DNA of 4,123 bases. Source: a virus. Its lineage: Duplodnaviria > Heunggongvirae > Uroviricota > Caudoviricetes. Both the position numbers and the translations under genes were made by a program. Of this stretch, positions 1-4,123 are shown piece by piece (position 1 is the stretch's first letter; the number at the start of each line of letters is the position of its first letter). A model generated the notes under the pieces. That model had not been told where the DNA came from. It saw nothing but the letters and a program-made list of their open reading frames with translations, and did no database searches. The DNA lies in IMG/VR virus record IMGVR_UViG_3300014970_000029. One strand, given 5' to 3'.

Positions 1-889
1 TGAAACCCAAATCAACGATCAACTGACTGGTTTCGGTCAGTGGGAATATGAATTCAAAGGCAACCGCGCTGAATCTCAAGGTTCTTCCAAAGACAAAACC
101 CGTCTTGCATTTGCAGGCCTGAAATTTGGTGATTACGGCTCAATCGATTACGGCCGTAACTACGGTGTAGCATACGACATCGGTGCGTGGACTGACGTCC
201 TGCCAGAATTCGGTGGTGATACCTGGACCCAAACAGATGTGTTCATGACTGGTCGCACTACTGGTGTTGCAACTTATCGTAACAACGACTTCTTTGGTCT
301 GGTCGATGGCCTGAACTTTGCTGCTCAGTATCAGGGTAAAAATGACCGCACTGACGTAACTGAAGCCAATGGTGATGGTTTCGGTTTCTCCACTACTTAT
401 GAGTATGAAGGATTCGGCGTGGGTGCAACCTATGCTAAATCAGATCGCACTGACGGTCAGGTCGCCTATGGTAAGAGCAAATTCAATGCCTCCGGCAAAA
501 ATGCGGAAGTATGGGCTGCAGGCCTGAAATATGATGCGAACAATATCTATCTGGCTACCACATATTCTGAAACTCAGAATATGACCGTTTTTGGTAATAA
601 CCATATTGCAAACAAAGCACAAAACTTTGAAGCAGTAGCACAATATCAGTTTGACTTCGGTCTGCGCCCATCTGTTGCTTACCTTCAGTCAAAAGGTAAA
701 GACCTTGGTGTTCATGGTGACCGAGACTTAGTCAAGTATGTCGATGTCGGTGCTACTTACTACTTTAATAAAAACATGTCCACTTTTGTTGATTACAAAA
801 TCAACTTAATTGACGATAGTAAGTTTACCAAAACAGCTGGTATTGATACTGATGATATCGTTGCTGTAGGTCTGGTTTACCAGTTCTAA
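1..889 (+). CDS. nmpC: Outer membrane porin, OmpC/OmpF/NmpC family, C-terminal ~296 codons (5' end lies outside the window). The reading frame is open from position 2 and ends at TAA 887-889.
   Basis: Seen in sequence: the frame starting at position 2 translates without stops as [88 protein letters not shown]... and ends ...[12 protein letters not shown]. Established knowledge: the aromatic-rich beta-strand pattern and the terminal VYQF with C-terminal Phe are the signature of enterobacterial general porins. Symbol nmpC is offered because of the adjacent Q gene (DLP12 nmpC / PA-2 lc arrangement, from memory); it could equally be annotated ompD/lc-like. Confidence 0.9.
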
Positions 890-898
890 TCTGATTAC

Positions 899-939
899 GA
901 AAAAGATATGTTGCGGGAGGCGTTGCCTCCCCAACATAT
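899..939 (-). terminator. Intrinsic terminator candidate for leftward (minus-strand) transcription: long GC-rich hairpin followed on the minus strand by a T-run. Possible tR'-like late terminator downstream of Q.
   Basis: Seen in sequence: 906-913 ATATGTTG / 932-939 CAACATAT and 915-921 GGGAGGC / 925-931 GCCTCCC form a ~15-bp stem (one bulged C at 914) with loop GTT. The plus-strand A-run at 900-904 is a T-run immediately 3' of the hairpin on the minus strand. On the plus strand no T-run follows the hairpin. Confidence 0.5.
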
Positions 940-961
940 AAGTGGCTCCCTCAAGCCACTT
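940..961. repeat. Second small perfect hairpin / inverted repeat (8-bp arms, 6-nt loop) immediately adjacent to the first.
   Basis: Seen in sequence: AAGTGGCT (940-947), loop ccctca, AGCCACTT (954-961). No flanking U-run, so function unknown (RNA stability element or protein site). Confidence 0.3.
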
Positions 962-1027
962 CCTTTAGGAGCACAACCTTGCTTCTAACTATATAAACCT
1001 TCTGTTATATATTACCCTTTATTTTTG

Positions 1028-1051
1028 GGGGCGTCTCAACGCCCCATTTTT
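1028..1051 (+). terminator. Rho-independent terminator for the porin transcript.
   Basis: Seen in sequence: stem GGGGCG (1028-1033) / CGCCCC (1040-1045), loop tctcaa, followed by TTTTT at 1047-1051 on the plus strand. Confidence 0.6.
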
Positions 1052-1078
1052 AATAATTTTTAGTAAACAATTGGCATA

Positions 1079-1462
1079 TTAATTAGAGTTATTAACAACG
1101 ATATCCATCTCTAACCGGATATCTAATGCCATTAACATCCCTTCAATTATGCCCTCAGCCTTTTGTAACCTTTTCCCGATATAACCATCAGAGCAGCAAT
1201 GCTTACCTGCCAGTGACATGAATGTCATACCGACTATATAATAATCTACTAATAAATCGTGCAAATCGCTGTTGTTCTTTTTCAGACGGGCCATGCACCC
1301 GCAAATGATCATCGCGTCATCGTCACAACATTGCGGGCGAGATTTTACTTTTGAAGGAATTAATCCCTTAAAACCGGCGGCAATGGACGACCAGGTCACA
1401 TCTTCATGATTATTAGCCGCCCACGCTCCCCAACGCTCAAGAACCATCTGAATATCACGCAT
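1079..1462 (-). CDS. quuD: Late-gene antitermination protein Q (phage 21 / DLP12 QuuD-like), 127 aa from the ATG at 1462. The ORF track's 1477 start is a TTG 5 codons upstream.
   Basis: Seen in sequence: ATG at 1462-1460 is preceded by GGAG with a 7-nt spacer on the minus strand. Translation [127 protein letters not shown]. From memory (not checked): this closely matches the E. coli DLP12 Q homolog in N-terminus and length; the Cys-rich centre is typical of this Q family. Position convergent with a porin gene matches the DLP12 / PA-2 layout. Confidence 0.85.
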
Positions 1463-1524
1463 CAACTTACTCCACAAAAATCAGACCAAAACGCCAATTA
1501 CAAGCAAAAATCAACAAAACAGTA

Positions 1525-1713
1525 TTAGTTGATTGTTATCTCTGACTTCATACTCCTGCTCCTGTCAGGGTTTTGGCGTAACTCTTCAGTATTCGGTACC
1601 TTTGCTTTGTTGTGAAGCCACTTATAGACGGCCTGCTGTGAAACTTCGCAAGCAGCGCCCAGTTTCTTTTGTGAACCAACGATATTGATCGCTGTTTTGA
1701 TAGCTGGGTTCAT
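1525..1713 (-). CDS. cro: Cro-like small HTH DNA-binding protein (Cro / YdaS-type), 62 aa.
   Basis: Seen in sequence: ATG at 1713 with GGAGG 5 nt upstream on the minus strand (plus-strand cctcc 1720-1724). Protein MNPAIKTAINIVGSQKKLGAACEVSQQAVYKWL... carries the G-[ST]-Q...LA...VS..AV..W helix-turn-helix pattern of P22 Cro / YdaS-type proteins (established family pattern, from memory). Divergent from a CI-like repressor across an operator-containing spacer. Confidence 0.7.
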   Translation of the reverse strand: MNPAIKTAINIVGSQKKLGAACEVSQQAVYKWLHNKAKVPNTEELRQNPDRSRSMKSEITIN

Positions 1714-1740
1714 AACAACCTCCGTGGTTAATTTGAATCA

Positions 1741-1769
1741 AGATTAAAACTATGGTTGTTTTTAGTCAA
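1741..1769 (-). promoter_or_regulatory. PR-like sigma70 promoter driving cro (and probably Q) leftward.
   Basis: Seen in sequence (minus-strand reading): -35 TTGACT (plus 1764-1769), 17-bp spacer, -10 TAATCT (plus 1741-1746). The predicted start leaves a ~20-nt leader with the GGAGG SD before the cro ATG. The palindromic operator overlaps the -35 and spacer. Not experimentally supported. Confidence 0.5.
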
Positions 1770-1776
1770 CAACCAT
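1752..1776. promoter_or_regulatory. Operator (OR-like): perfect 9-bp inverted repeat with 7-bp spacer, ATGGTTGTT-tttagtc-AACAACCAT.
   Basis: Seen in sequence: arms at 1752-1760 and 1768-1776 are exact reverse complements. Related half-sites occur at 1714-1720 (AACAACC) and 1801-1807 (GGTTGTA). The location between divergent repressor and cro genes is the canonical operator position. Confidence 0.6.
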
Positions 1777-1782
1777 TTTCGT

Positions 1783-1811
1783 TTGATGAAATAAAACCTT
1801 GGTTGTACATT
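1783..1811 (+). promoter_or_regulatory. PRM-like promoter candidate for leaderless cI transcription.
   Basis: Seen in sequence: -35 TTGATG (1783-1788), 17-bp spacer, -10 TACATT (1806-1811), placing a start at or near the cI ATG (1818). There is no SD before 1818, which fits a leaderless mRNA as in lambda cI (established for lambda; inference here). Weak hexamers, so speculative. Confidence 0.3.
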
Positions 1812-1817
1812 TGGACT

Positions 1818-2507
1818 ATGAAAACAACACTCTCAGAAAGACTTAAAGAAGCCAGATTAGCGCGAGGCCTTACACAAAAGGCGCTTGGGGATTTGGTCGG
1901 GGTTAGCCAGGCTGCTATTCAGAAAATCGAAACAGGGAAAGCTAATCAAACAACTAAAATCGTGGAGATCGCGAACGCTTTGGGTGTGCGCGCAGAATGG
2001 TTATCTTCTGGCGTTGGAAATATGTCAGACAGTACAGTGCAACCAATACAATCAACTGTCAGCCATTCCAAATACTTCAAGATTGACGTTCTTGATATAG
2101 AAGTCAGTGCTGGGCCGGGAGTCATAAACCGTGAGTTTGTAGAAGTTCTACGCTCGGTTGAGTACTCGTTTGACGATGCTCGTCACATGTTCGATGGTAG
2201 GAAGGCGGAAAATATCCGCATCATTAACGTGCGTGGTGACAGCATGTCAGGAACGATCGAACCAGGTGATCTGCTGTTCGTTGATATCACGGTTAAATCT
2301 TTCGACGGTGATGGTATCTATGCGTTTCTGTACGACGACACAGCCCATGTAAAGCGCCTGCAAATGATGAAGGATAAGCTGCTGGTTATCTCTGATAACA
2401 AGAGCTACTCACCGTGGGACCCGATCGAGAAAGACGAGATGAACCGGGTGTTCATATTCGGTAAGGTTATTGGGAGCATGCCCCAGACGTACAGGAAACA
2501 TGGATAA
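1818..2507 (+). CDS. cI: CI-type prophage repressor: N-terminal XRE-family HTH plus C-terminal S24 (LexA-like) autopeptidase domain, 229 aa. The ORF track's longer form starts at 1752.
   Basis: Seen in sequence: MKTTLSERLKEARLARGLTQKALGDLVGVSQAAIQKIETGKANQ... is a classic HTH_XRE. Ala98-Gly99 (gct ggg, 2109-2114) is a candidate self-cleavage site; the C-terminal domain has the GDSM serine motif and HVKRL lysine, as in LexA / lambda CI (established knowledge). Start 1818 is preferred because the upstream ATG at 1752 sits inside the operator palindrome and its 22-aa extension has no HTH character. Confidence 0.9.
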   Translation: MKTTLSERLKEARLARGLTQKALGDLVGVSQAAIQKIETGKANQTTKIVEIANALGVRAEWLSSGVGNMSDSTVQPIQSTVSHSKYFKIDVLDIEVSAGPGVINREFVEVLRSVEYSFDDARHMFDGRKAENIRIINVRGDSMSGTIEPGDLLFVDITVKSFDGDGIYAFLYDDTAHVKRLQMMKDKLLVISDNKSYSPWDPIEKDEMNRVFIFGKVIGSMPQTYRKHG

Positions 2508-2573
2508 TCAGTACTGTGCTGATGAGTCGTTTAGGGGATAGTAAATTTAATTAGAATTAGACGAGAGCGATTT

Positions 2574-3437
2574 ATGGATTGTGACGCTTTACAGGATATA
2601 AAAATCTCTCTTAGGTATGACGGAAAAGATGCTTTAAATCATGAAATAGATTTGAACTGCCTAGGAGAATCCCTAAAGGGTTTTTCTAAAGTTCTCTCAA
2701 CAGCAGCTTCTTTCTCTGTTACACAAAAATATAGTAAATACATTAATTATCAGGAAGTTAAGGTTTACGCACGCGAAGCAAAAGCTAACTGCTTTACTCT
2801 TGAAGCAGTTCTTAACTTCGCCACTCAGAACCAGTTGTTCTCGGGGATCGCCGCAACTATACTTGGCGCAATACTACAATATATTTTTGCGAGAAATTCT
2901 AACAAGAAAGATGAAATGAAAGCTTTGCAGCAGTCACTTGAAAAGGCCATAGAGGCACTAGGAAACAAGGATGCTGGAACCATTGATAAGTTGATCTCTT
3001 TGATTGACCGAATGGCTGTAGAGCTTCGCCCCTCTGTAAGGCAGGCAGTATCACCTATTGGTAATACTTGCGATCAGATAAGTGTTGCAACAAATGTTGA
3101 CGGCTGCCTTCTAAAAGTTAACGAGAGAGATAAAGCTGAAATTGATAGGCTTGATGATGATGAAGTTCTCGGTCTTCGTGAGTATCGTGCTTTTCTTACA
3201 GAATTTGATGCACAAAATATGACAGCTAAAATAATTTTAGATGGTGATGACTCAAAAAAGAGAATCACTGCTGAAATTAGCGATCCAGCTGCAGGAAAGA
3301 AGAATAACCCGTATATTAGAGCTCTTAGTGCATATATATCAACCAAAGGTGATCCATCTGCAGTATTCACTATAACCGCAAAGGCTACTGTTAAAAAAGG
3401 CCAGATAAACAGGTTATTTATTGTAGATGCGAAATGA
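2574..3437 (+). CDS. Uncharacterized 287-aa protein in the cI-downstream (rexAB-equivalent) slot. Candidate prophage accessory / phage-exclusion gene. No family recognised.
   Basis: Seen in sequence: long ORF with ATG 2574, a weak-to-moderate SD-like AGAG ~8 nt upstream, TGA at 3435-3437, immediately followed by an intrinsic terminator. Same strand as cI with a 66-bp gap and no hairpin terminator, so likely co-transcribed. Visibly AT-rich relative to its neighbours. One ~19-residue hydrophobic segment (about residues 88-106, [19 protein letters not shown]) and a charged helical-looking segment ([41 protein letters not shown]). The only competing ORF here is an antisense, low-complexity one. 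Confidence 0.75.
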
Positions 3438-3441
3438 TTTC

Positions 3442-3468
3442 CCCGGCCGTCGTGCCGGGTTTTCTTTT
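3442..3468 (+). terminator. Rho-independent terminator ending the cI / 287-aa ORF transcription unit.
   Basis: Seen in sequence: stem CCCGGC (3442-3447) / GCCGGG (3454-3459), 6-nt loop cgtcgt, then TTTTCTTTT (3460-3468), starting 5 bp after the stop codon. Confidence 0.7.
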
Positions 3469-3560
3469 GCCTCCCCTCATCACACAAACCGTTCAAAAAA
3501 CCACCACGACCTCGCTTCAGTTATCGCTGTGCGATGCAAGTCACAAAATAAATCCATCCT

Positions 3561-3660
3561 AAATACAACCAGTTATATCTAAAACAACCAATAAAACAAC
3601 TTTTGTTGTTGACGATAAAACAACTATAGTTTTAAATAAGTTCATCGCAACAACACAACG
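3561..3660. promoter_or_regulatory. OL-like operator/promoter region: cluster of AACAAC / GTTGTT motifs sharing the OR half-site, with promoter-like hexamers.
   Basis: Seen in sequence: TACAACC 3564-3570 (reverse complement of GGTTGTA at 1801-1807); AAAACAAC at 3581-3588, 3593-3600 and 3617-3624; AACAACCAAT 3583-3592 resembles the OR arm AACAACCAT; inverted pair AACAAC-tttt-GTTGTT 3595-3610; 10-bp perfect palindrome AACTATAGTT 3622-3631; CAACAACACAAC 3648-3659. Plus-strand -35-like TTGACG 3609-3614 with TTAAAT 3632-3637 after a 17-bp spacer. Direction and exact operator boundaries are unresolved. Confidence 0.35.
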
Positions 3661-3693
3661 ATACGGCAACTACCTGATTCACCGTTGCGATGA
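3642..3693. repeat. 10-bp perfect inverted repeat TCATCGCAAC ... GTTGCGATGA separated by 32 nt.
   Basis: Seen in sequence: arms at 3642-3651 and 3684-3693 are exact reverse complements. Could form a stem-loop in a leader RNA or be a protein-binding site. Confidence 0.3.
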
Positions 3694-3830
3694 CCGCTTA
3701 GATCCGCAGTTTGAATTTCAGCAGGCTTCGGGGAGTGCGAGGGGTGAAACGGACGCGTGAACGTCGGTGTGACCAGCTGAAATTAACTCAACATTTCATA
3801 CCTTAGTCGCTTCAACGAGGCGGCTTAGTT

Positions 3831-4121
3831 ATGACAACCGGCGGCCATCCACCGCCTGAATACGCGCAGAAGTCTCTATATGTTCAGCAGCCCAGCTTAC
3901 GGGCAGGAGTTTTTATGGTTCATCAACATTATGGAACGCAGACCGTTAATCGAGGTGCGGTCATGCCAGGAATGCTGGTCAAACACAAAGATGGTACCTG
4001 GACTGCATCAGCTAATTTACGCGGACGGCTTTATCTGCATCGCGGCATCGAGCGCACTTATACCCGTGATTTGCTCGTGGAAGTTTTTCTCGACGGACGC
4101 GGTAACGGCCTGAATCACTAA
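3831..4121 (+). CDS. Hypothetical protein, 96 aa, GC-rich. Function unknown.
   Basis: Seen in sequence: ATG at 3831 with GAGG 10 nt upstream and TAA at 4119-4121. I checked the minus strand by eye here and all three frames are interrupted by stops, so no competing antisense gene. No recognisable motif; not arginine-rich, so not an obvious N-type antiterminator. The overlapping alternative-frame ORF 3880-4113 is Cys/Trp-rich and less protein-like. Confidence 0.4.
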   Translation: MTTGGHPPPEYAQKSLYVQQPSLRAGVFMVHQHYGTQTVNRGAVMPGMLVKHKDGTWTASANLRGRLYLHRGIERTYTRDLLVEVFLDGRGNGLNH

Positions 4122-4123
4122 TC

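What the first reader, a model, noticed from the sequence alone, without database searches (positions are those of the whole stretch)
1079..1713. cro is followed directly by Q with no replication or nin genes: a deleted or minimal prophage regulatory circuit
Seen in sequence: only 62 bp separate the cro stop (1525) from the Q start (1462), with a good SD for Q and no hairpin terminator between them. Established knowledge: in lambdoid phages cro is normally followed by cII, O/P-type replication genes and the nin region before Q. Inference: either a large internal deletion fused the immunity region to the late regulator, giving a cryptic prophage that keeps repressor, accessory gene, Q and porin, or this is a naturally minimal circuit in which PR derepression expresses Q directly without an N-type cascade. 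The Cro-like protein's C-terminal 25 residues (VPNTEELRQNPDRSRSMKSEITIN) do not look like the usual Cro/YdaS tail as I remember it, which may mark a deletion junction.
Basis: partly seen in the sequence, partly recalled or inferred. Interest (0 to 1): 0.55.

Follow-up and report, generated by a model that had tools for sequence, protein, structure and literature searches.

The report
Deletion fusing cro to Q in prophage
In a decaying DLP12-site prophage of E. coli, a roughly 6–8 kb deletion removed the replication and nin genes and joined half of the cro gene to the DNA just upstream of the late regulator Q; this is ordinary prophage decay, not a naturally minimal phage circuit.

Summary
A 62-codon Cro-like ORF (1525–1713, −) lies 62 bp upstream of a 127-codon QuuD-type Q gene (1079–1462, −), and no terminator was found between them.

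The cause is a deletion, mapped to the base. Window 1–1598 is colinear with porin–Q–ylcG of intact lambdoid phages. Window 1597–4123 is colinear with their cro–cI–kil region. The two share a 2-bp 'TA' at 1597–1598.

The junction falls in codon 39 of cro, which is 76 codons when intact, and in codon 29/30 of ylcG. The odd Cro tail is the ylcG 3′ end and the spacer before Q, read out of frame.

Intact relatives (phage PhiR34_1; a prophage in strain QEC11-421) carry cII/YdaT, O, P, ren, nin genes, rusA and ylcG in the gap, spanning 6.7–8.3 kb.

The exact junction is in 2 of 5,426 complete E. coli genomes. Five near-identical genomes have the same Q-side endpoint and 28 bp less of cro. The junction is in no phage record or viral contig.

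The prophage has other, lineage-specific deletions. That Q is now controlled directly by CI through PR is inferred, not tested. Interest is low.

The parts
1..889 (+). 3′ 888 bases of the prophage porin gene (NmpC/OmpD/Lc-type; RefSeq calls it 'porin OmpC'). It converges on Q.
   Evidence: Pfam Porin_1, E = 1.1e-133. Annotated in L001 at 19807–20889. Same position and orientation in Perceval and PhiR34_1.
890..1078 (-). Region downstream of Q, where the Q-dependent late promoter and terminator are expected. Only hairpins were seen and no function was tested. A + strand terminator-like hairpin lies at 1028–1045.
   Evidence: Terminator-like site at 1028–1045 (+). The region is colinear with intact phages (window 1–1598 is 97.8% identical to Perceval). 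Its role as the late promoter region is inferred from position only.
1079..1462 (-). quuD-type antiterminator gene Q, intact, 127 aa.
   Evidence: PF06530 E = 1.2e-53, profile 1–118 of 118. PHROG 79 E = 1e-52. RefSeq WP_001204774.1 is identical in the three carrier genomes whose annotation was read.
1463..1547 (-). Native ylcG–Q intergenic spacer with the Q Shine-Dalgarno sequence. The chimeric ORF reads into part of it.
   Evidence: Colinear with Perceval L002 and PhiR34_1 L006. GGAG 7 nt before the ATG.
1548..1598 (-). Remnant of ylcG: its last 16 codons plus the stop, in the +1 frame relative to cro'.
   Evidence: Frame 1 reads YRILKSYAKTLTGAGV*, against YlcG …TDYRILKNYAKTLTGAGV* of PhiR34_1 and Perceval.
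1597..1598 (.). Deletion junction: a 2-bp 'TA' shared by both parental sequences.
   Evidence: Three-way base alignment. Parental sites AAAGGTA|TCCCC and CGATTA|CCGAA in PhiR34_1. Anchor mapping.
1599..1713 (-). Authentic 5′ half of cro, codons 1–38, holding the helix-turn-helix region.
   Evidence: Residues 1–39 are identical to the 76-aa Cro of PhiR34_1. Pfam YdaS/P22_Cro match to residues 5–42 only.
1525..1713 (-). Chimeric cro'–'ylcG (out-of-frame) ORF of 62 codons, produced by the deletion.
   Evidence: In the five genomes with the 28-bp shorter junction, RefSeq marks it as a pseudogene 'missing C-terminus'.
1714..1817 (.). Divergent cI–cro control region. Putative PR on the − strand: −35 TTGACT at 1769–1764, a 17-nt spacer, −10 TAATCT at 1746–1741. 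A 17-bp operator lies at 1746–1762.
   Evidence: The hexamers are read from the sequence, and the consensus scan did not list this promoter.
1818..2507 (+). CI-type repressor, intact: an HTH domain plus an S24 autocleavage domain.
   Evidence: HTH_3 E = 6.5e-13 and Peptidase_S24 E = 1.5e-18. PHROG 4 E = 8.7e-73. WP_000858975.1 is identical in the intact QEC11-421 prophage.
2574..3437 (+). Accessory gene downstream of cI, in the position of lambda rexAB. It encodes a DUF7946 + DUF7947 protein. A terminator-like hairpin follows at 3442–3459.
   Evidence: Pfam E = 3.8e-55 and 1.4e-18. Terminator-like site. Weak PADLOC match to PDC-S42, E = 1.5e-4.
3593..3633 (+). OL operators and a putative PL promoter pointing towards kil.
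   Evidence: Operator matches at 3593–3609 and 3617–3633. TTGACG at 3610–3615 lies between them.
3915..4121 (+). kil, a cell-division inhibitor gene.
   Evidence: PHROG 294 Kil, E = 1.3e-37. RefSeq annotation.

Best explanation
A single illegitimate-recombination deletion occurred in a lambdoid prophage at the argU/DLP12 site of one E. coli lineage. It used only a 2-bp TA microhomology.

The deletion removed everything from codon 39/40 of cro to codon 29/30 of ylcG. Lost were the cro 3′ half, cII/YdaT, replication genes O and P (and the origin, if it lies within O as in lambda), ren, accessory and nin genes, rusA and most of ylcG. The equivalent stretch is 6.7–8.3 kb in intact relatives. The prophage cannot replicate.

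The 'Cro' ORF is a chimera: 38 real Cro codons, one junction codon, and 23 codons of out-of-frame ylcG and spacer sequence.

Inferred consequences, not tested: PR is still flanked by CI operators and now sits about 280 nt from an intact Q gene with no intervening terminator. Q should therefore be repressed by CI in the lysogenic state and expressed directly when CI is cleaved after SOS induction, with no need for early antitermination. The truncated Cro probably no longer works as a dimeric repressor.
For: **Breakpoint and parental sequences**
- Sharp switch of homology at 1597/1598 in both E. coli genomes and phage records.
- Base-level three-way alignment and the TA overlap.
- Both parental sites are present and colinear in single intact elements, 8,310 bp apart in PhiR34_1 and 6,713 bp apart in the QEC11-421 prophage, with replication and nin genes between them.
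- In ten IMG/VR loci where both intact sites fall in one fetched stretch, they lie 5.6–7.2 kb apart.

**Truncated genes on both sides**
- The ylcG remnant is in a different frame from cro'.
- The Pfam Cro/YdaS match ends at the junction.
- Intact Cro aligns over residues 4–66 with solved Cro proteins 3bd1 and 5w8y.

**Distribution**
- The junction is in 2 genomes, with a 28-bp shorter derivative in 5.
- The two carrier lineages are 99.96–100% identical, with no mismatch in the junction block.
- The junction is absent from the viral contig collection, and no phage record holds at least 80% of the window in one place.

**Other decay in the same prophage**
- Partial rrrD, portal and gam genes, and no holin gene.

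**Transcription signals**
- No terminator or unusual structure between PR and Q.
- Operator motif shared by the PR and PL regions.
Against: Nothing found contradicts the deletion itself.

- The exact ancestor is not available, so the size (5.6–8.3 kb) and gene content of the lost segment come from relatives whose nin regions differ.
- No transcription, SOS response or protein activity was measured, so the functional consequences are untested.
- The proposed PR −10 hexamer (TAATCT) is too weak for the consensus scan to list.
- Order of events is inferred from parsimony: the 28-bp shorter junction could in principle be an independent deletion with the same Q-side endpoint.
Confidence: 0.95

Rival explanations
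1. A naturally minimal lambdoid circuit: a functional phage or satellite in which PR expresses Q directly, with replication functions encoded elsewhere or borrowed.
For: Q, CI, PR/OR, PL/OL, kil and integrase are intact. No terminator lies between PR and Q.
Against: - Both genes at the junction are truncated and fused out of frame.
- No O/P-type replication gene is annotated anywhere between intD and appY.
- Portal, rrrD and gam are fragments, and the holin gene is missing.
- No phage record holds at least 80% of the window in one place.
- Neither junction sequence is in any viral contig, while both undeleted sites occur in at least 120 viral contigs each.
Confidence: 0.01
2. A mosaic joint made by recombination between two different phages (module exchange), rather than an intramolecular deletion.
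For: Lambdoid phages are mosaics. The left part of the window best matches Bievrevirus-type phages at 97.8%, while the right part best matches PhiR34_1/PhiR5_1-type immunity regions.
Against: - Single elements carry both parts in the same order and orientation (PhiR34_1; QEC11-421 prophage; ten IMG/VR loci), so a simple deletion is enough.
- A productive module exchange would not be expected to truncate two genes and remove all replication functions.
- The joint has only 2 bp of homology.
Confidence: 0.03
3. An assembly or sequencing artefact that collapsed the region.
For: None found.
Against: - The junction is identical in two independent complete assemblies, 2017.11.01CC and PSS-10.
- It occurs in one metagenome contig.
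- A derived form is present in five further complete genomes from different hosts and countries.
Confidence: 0.01

Closest known systems
DLP12 defective lambdoid prophage of E. coli K-12 (argU site: intD … quuD, nmpC, essD, rrrD, rzpD … appY)
   Same: - Same chromosomal site: tRNA-Arg/intD on one side, appY–ompT–envY on the other.
- Same QuuD-type Q, a convergent porin gene, a lysis cassette and nohD.
- Also defective through internal deletions.
- The DLP12 lysis operon is reported to be under control of a Q-type antiterminator, among other factors (PMC7918800).
   Different: From my own knowledge, not tested here: K-12 DLP12 lacks the cI–cro immunity region but keeps ren, emrE, ybcK–ybcO, rusA and ylcG upstream of quuD. 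The element here keeps cI, the operators and half of cro, and has lost exactly that ren–ylcG segment together with O and P. It is therefore a different deletion allele of a related prophage.
Intact lambdoid phages PhiR34_1 (PV340559.1) and Perceval (Bievrevirus, OV696612.1), and the QEC11-421 prophage
   Same: - The cro–cI region and the region downstream of the accessory gene are 98.5–98.8% identical to PhiR34_1 (the DUF7946 gene itself is absent there), and window 1597–4123 is 99.9% identical to QEC11-421.
- The porin–Q–ylcG region is 97.8% identical to Perceval.
- Gene order is the same on either side of the junction.
   Different: They carry full-length cro (76 aa in PhiR34_1), cII/YdaT, O, P, ren, nin genes, rusA and full-length ylcG between cro and Q. 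All of this is missing here.
Cro proteins of the P22 Cro/YdaS and Xfaso 1 type (PDB 3bd1, 5w8y)
   Same: Residues 1–38 carry the N-terminal part, including the helix-turn-helix region. Pfam YdaS_toxin E = 2.6e-9 and P22_Cro E = 5.1e-5.
   Different: Only profile positions 1–36 of 60–65 are present. The intact relative aligns with solved Cro proteins over residues 4–66. The C-terminal half has been replaced by unrelated out-of-frame sequence.

Membership tests
Defective (cryptic) lambdoid prophage at the DLP12/argU site | Integrated next to tRNA-Arg (argU) with an intD-type integrase, and bounded on the other side by appY/ompT | tested here: met
   L001 annotation: intD, tRNA-Arg, fimZ on one side; appY, ompT, envY on the other.
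Defective (cryptic) lambdoid prophage at the DLP12/argU site | Lacks genes essential for lytic growth (replication, morphogenesis, lysis) | tested here: met
   No O/P genes are annotated. Portal, rrrD and gam are fragments, and there is no holin gene. The replication and nin segment is deleted relative to intact relatives.
Phage antitermination protein Q, QuuD type (Pfam PF06530) | Full-length match to the family profile above the curated cut-off | tested here: met
   180.4 bits against a cut-off of 26, profile 1–118 of 118. PHROG 79 E = 1e-52.
Phage antitermination protein Q, QuuD type (Pfam PF06530) | Antitermination activity at a late promoter and its Q-binding site downstream of Q | not testable with these tools
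   The region 890–1078 is colinear with intact phages (window 1–1598 is 97.8% identical to Perceval), but no activity can be measured here.
Cro repressor (P22_Cro / YdaS family) | Complete Cro domain of about 60–76 aa, including the C-terminal half | tested here: not met
   The Pfam matches cover only profile positions 1–36 of 65 and 3–36 of 60. P22_Cro scores 23.4 bits, below its cut-off of 30.2. The intact homologue is 76 aa, and identity ends at residue 39.
CI-type SOS-cleavable repressor | N-terminal HTH domain plus C-terminal S24 (LexA-like) autocleavage domain | tested here: met
   HTH_3 at 49 bits and Peptidase_S24 at 67 bits, both above their cut-offs. The protein has the same accession as in an intact-looking prophage.
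Naturally compact phage regulatory circuit (cro directly followed by Q in a viable phage) | The same adjacency present in intact phage genomes | tested here: not met
   No record among 50,697 phage records holds at least 80% of the window in one place. Neither junction 24-mer occurs in IMG/VR, while both undeleted sites occur in at least 120 contigs each.

The most novel reading that the evidence does not exclude
By accident, the deletion built a short SOS-triggered lysis circuit: CI cleavage, then PR, then Q, then the late promoter, then holin/endolysin/spanin. It has no phage replication, and particle assembly is probably also lost.

This circuit is complete in the five sister genomes that keep essD–rrrD–Rz. 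It could be retained as an SOS-dependent autolysis, vesicle-release or abortive-defence module. The 510-bp loss of essD/rrrD in the window's own genome could then be a later detoxifying step.
Probability: 0.07. Interest if true: 0.45.

Novelty: new member of a known kind. Interest (0 to 1): 0.13.

Why it matters
This matters little beyond annotation.

- It is a cleanly resolved example of stepwise prophage decay: one ancestral deletion with a 2-bp junction, followed by different secondary deletions in near-identical strains.
- The 62-aa 'transcriptional regulator' WP_229430185.1 is a fusion artefact of that deletion and should be treated as a pseudogene.
- The CI-controlled PR promoter is now wired directly to Q. 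This is a natural construct for anyone testing whether cryptic-prophage Q and lysis genes respond to the SOS signal.
- It does not reveal a new regulatory architecture.

Tried and rejected
- **put-like RNA antitermination (as in HK022).** No N ORF is visible between PL and kil, so I looked for a put-like RNA whose PR-side copy would have been deleted. Rfam gave only a chance miRNA hit. The PL leader folds only slightly better than shuffles (z = −1.2). The PL leader and the PR–cro–cII region of PhiR34_1 share no similarity above shuffled controls (score 20 against 18.9 ± 2.2). Dropped as unsupported.
- **New promoter created at the junction.** One weak − strand promoter-like match (TTCACA-17-AATACT, 1616..1588) spans the junction, but the number of such matches in the region equals the chance expectation. 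Not pursued.
- **Accessory protein as a known defence gene.** The DUF7946/7947 protein gave only a weak match to PADLOC candidate PDC-S42 (E = 1.5e-4, partial).
- **Literature.** Four full-text searches found no description of this junction, only general context on DLP12 and prophage decay.
- **Not used.** Structure prediction and the large protein searches would not change the conclusion.

Full report
**Where the window comes from.** The 4,123 bases are 100% identical to the chromosome of E. coli strain 2017.11.01CC (NZ_AP025220.2, 3,377,773–3,381,895) and to strain PSS-10. With 20 kb of flank on each side, the window lies inside a lambdoid prophage. On one side are intD, tRNA-Arg and fimZ; on the other are appY, ompT and envY. 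This is the DLP12 site.

**Gene content of the window**:
- The 3′ part of a porin gene, 1–889 (+).
- A QuuD-type Q gene, 1079–1462 (−), matching PF06530 at E = 1.2e-53.
- A 62-codon Cro-like ORF, 1525–1713 (−).
- A CI repressor with HTH and S24 domains, 1818–2507 (+).
- A DUF7946/DUF7947 accessory gene, 2574–3437 (+).
- kil, 3915–4121 (+).

Exactly 62 bp (1463–1524) separate the cro' stop codon from the Q ATG. A GGAG lies 7 nt before that ATG. The terminator scan finds nothing on the − strand between 1713 and 1462. The 291-nt PR-to-Q leader folds no better than shuffled sequence (z = −0.02).

**The breakpoint.** Megablast against phage records splits the window cleanly. Bases 1–1598 match the porin–Q–ylcG region of many lambdoid phages, for example Perceval at 97.8%. 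Bases 1597–4123 match the cro–cI–kil region of others, for example PhiR34_1 at about 98.8%. No phage record holds at least 80% of the window in one place. The same switch at position 1597 is seen in hundreds of E. coli genomes.

A three-way base alignment places the junction at window 1597–1598, a 'TA' present in both parental sequences. On the transcribed strand the parental sites are AAAGG**TA**TCCCC in cro and CGAT**TA**CCGAA in ylcG. The product is AAAGG**TA**CCGAA.

**What the junction does to the genes.** Intact Cro of PhiR34_1 is 76 aa. The window's ORF is identical to it through residue 39 and then reads PNTEELRQNPDRSRSMKSEITIN. Those 23 residues come from the last 16 codons of ylcG and part of the ylcG–Q spacer, read out of frame. 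The true ylcG frame (YRILKSYAKTLTGAGV*) is still visible in the +1 frame at 1598–1548.

The Pfam YdaS and P22_Cro matches end at residues 40–42, about halfway through the profiles. Intact Cro aligns over residues 4–66 with the solved Cro proteins 3bd1 and 5w8y. The chimera therefore lacks the whole C-terminal half and is probably inactive as a repressor. That last point is an inference.

**What was lost.** PhiR34_1 is a complete phage record that carries both parental sites in the same order. They are 8,310 bp apart there. Between them lie the cro 3′ half, cII, O, P, ren, an SMR transporter gene, ybcK, ybcL, ybcM, ybcN, ninE, ybcO, rusA and most of ylcG.

An intact-looking prophage in strain QEC11-421 encodes CI, DUF7946 and Kil proteins with the same accessions as the window's. 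Its two sites are 6,713 bp apart, again with a cII/YdaT-like gene, O, P, ren, nin genes, rusA and ylcG between them.

In ten IMG/VR loci where both undeleted sites fall in one fetched stretch, they lie 5.6–7.2 kb apart. The deletion therefore removed about 6–8 kb, including all replication functions.

**Distribution and history.** Of 5,426 complete E. coli genomes, 3,325 match one half or the other of the 200 bases around the junction. Only 7 have the halves adjacent.

Two genomes carry the exact junction. Five others (ECCWS199, ET896, PKF8, LR-27, E3) share the Q-side endpoint to the base but lack a further 28 bp of cro, again between TA dinucleotides. The loci of 2017.11.01CC and PKF8 are 99.96–100% identical over all shared host and prophage DNA. 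The 4.6-kb block holding the junction has no mismatch and only that single 28-bp gap. They also share the nfrA and nrfB pseudogenes.

The simplest history is one ancestral cro–ylcG deletion, then a 28-bp secondary deletion in one branch. Each branch then decayed further in its own way:
- The window's genome lost 510 bp covering most of essD and rrrD, and also lost bet and exo.
- PKF8 lost kil–gam and the terminase/portal segment, and its integrase is reduced to a fragment.

Neither junction 24-mer occurs in IMG/VR. One 2.8-kb metagenome contig has the window's form.

**How it most likely works now.** The cI–cro control region is intact. A 17-bp operator, AAAACAACYATAGTTTT, lies in the spacer of a putative PR promoter (TTGACT, 17 nt, TAATCT on the − strand, 1769–1741).

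CI is full length with an S24 autocleavage domain. I therefore infer that Q is silent while CI is bound. After SOS-induced cleavage of CI, PR transcripts should run through the translated 62-codon chimera and reach Q about 280 nt downstream, with no terminator to overcome. In the intact phage the same polymerase must cross 6–8 kb. None of this was measured.

In the window's own genome the downstream targets are already broken, because holin and most of the endolysin gene are deleted. In the five sister genomes essD, rrrD and the Rz-type spanin gene are intact, so the short circuit could be lethal on induction there.

**Comparison with what is known.** This is a DLP12-family defective prophage with a deletion allele different from the K-12 one. 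From my own knowledge, K-12 DLP12 lacks cI–cro but keeps the ren–ylcG segment. Deletional decay of prophages is well documented (for example the review PMC6379469). The DLP12 lysis operon is described as being under control of a Q-type antiterminator, among other factors (PMC7918800). I found no paper describing this junction.

**Verdict.** The alternative, a naturally minimal circuit, is refuted. It is an ordinary, if neatly resolved, case of prophage decay. Interest is 0.13.

Noticed in passing
window 2574-3437 (+): A 287-aa DUF7946 + DUF7947 protein sits directly after cI, in the position of lambda rexAB, and is followed by a terminator-like hairpin at 3442–3459. PhiR34_1 lacks it: window 2507–3441 has no match there. 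The QEC11-421 prophage has a protein with the same accession. It gives only a weak partial match to the PADLOC candidate PDC-S42 (E = 1.5e-4). It may be a lysogen-expressed defence moron.
   Followed up: partly
window 3634-3914 (+): No N-like ORF lies between the PL/OL operators and kil. The leader shows no Rfam match, its fold is not unusual (z = −1.2), and it has no similarity to the PR-side leader of PhiR34_1. How this phage group gets early transcription past terminators is unexplained here.
   Followed up: partly
L001 19203-19207 versus L004 17196-17705: The window's genome has a 510-bp deletion that removes most of the holin gene essD and the 5′ part of rrrD. The sister lineage (PKF8, ECCWS199) keeps both genes. 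The deletion disables the lysis cassette that Q would switch on.
   Followed up: partly
L004 20088-20114 and L005 3088-3114 (equivalent to window 1585-1639): Five genomes carry a junction 28 bp shorter than the window's, with the same Q-side endpoint and again flanked by TA. RefSeq marks cro as a pseudogene there, but in the window's genome it annotates the chimeric ORF as an ordinary 'transcriptional regulator' (WP_229430185.1).
   Followed up: yes
window 1752-1820 (+): The cI reading frame is open from an upstream ATG at 1752, giving 251 aa as annotated in PhiR34_1. RefSeq starts at the ATG at 1818, giving 229 aa. The upstream start lies inside the operator/PR region. The shorter form with a very short or absent leader, as for lambda cI from PRM, seems more likely. 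Not tested.
   Followed up: no
window 900-1078: Several hairpins lie between the porin stop and the Q stop: 907–940, 942–961, and the GC-rich hairpin at 1028–1045 with T-runs. In this family the late transcript from downstream of Q has to run antisense through the whole porin gene to reach the lysis genes. The late promoter and its terminator were not mapped.
   Followed up: no
L001 425-5621 and L004 1-3847: The host genes nrfB and nfrA (phage N4 adsorption) both carry internal stop codons in both carrier lineages. This supports a close clonal relationship between the carriers.
   Followed up: no
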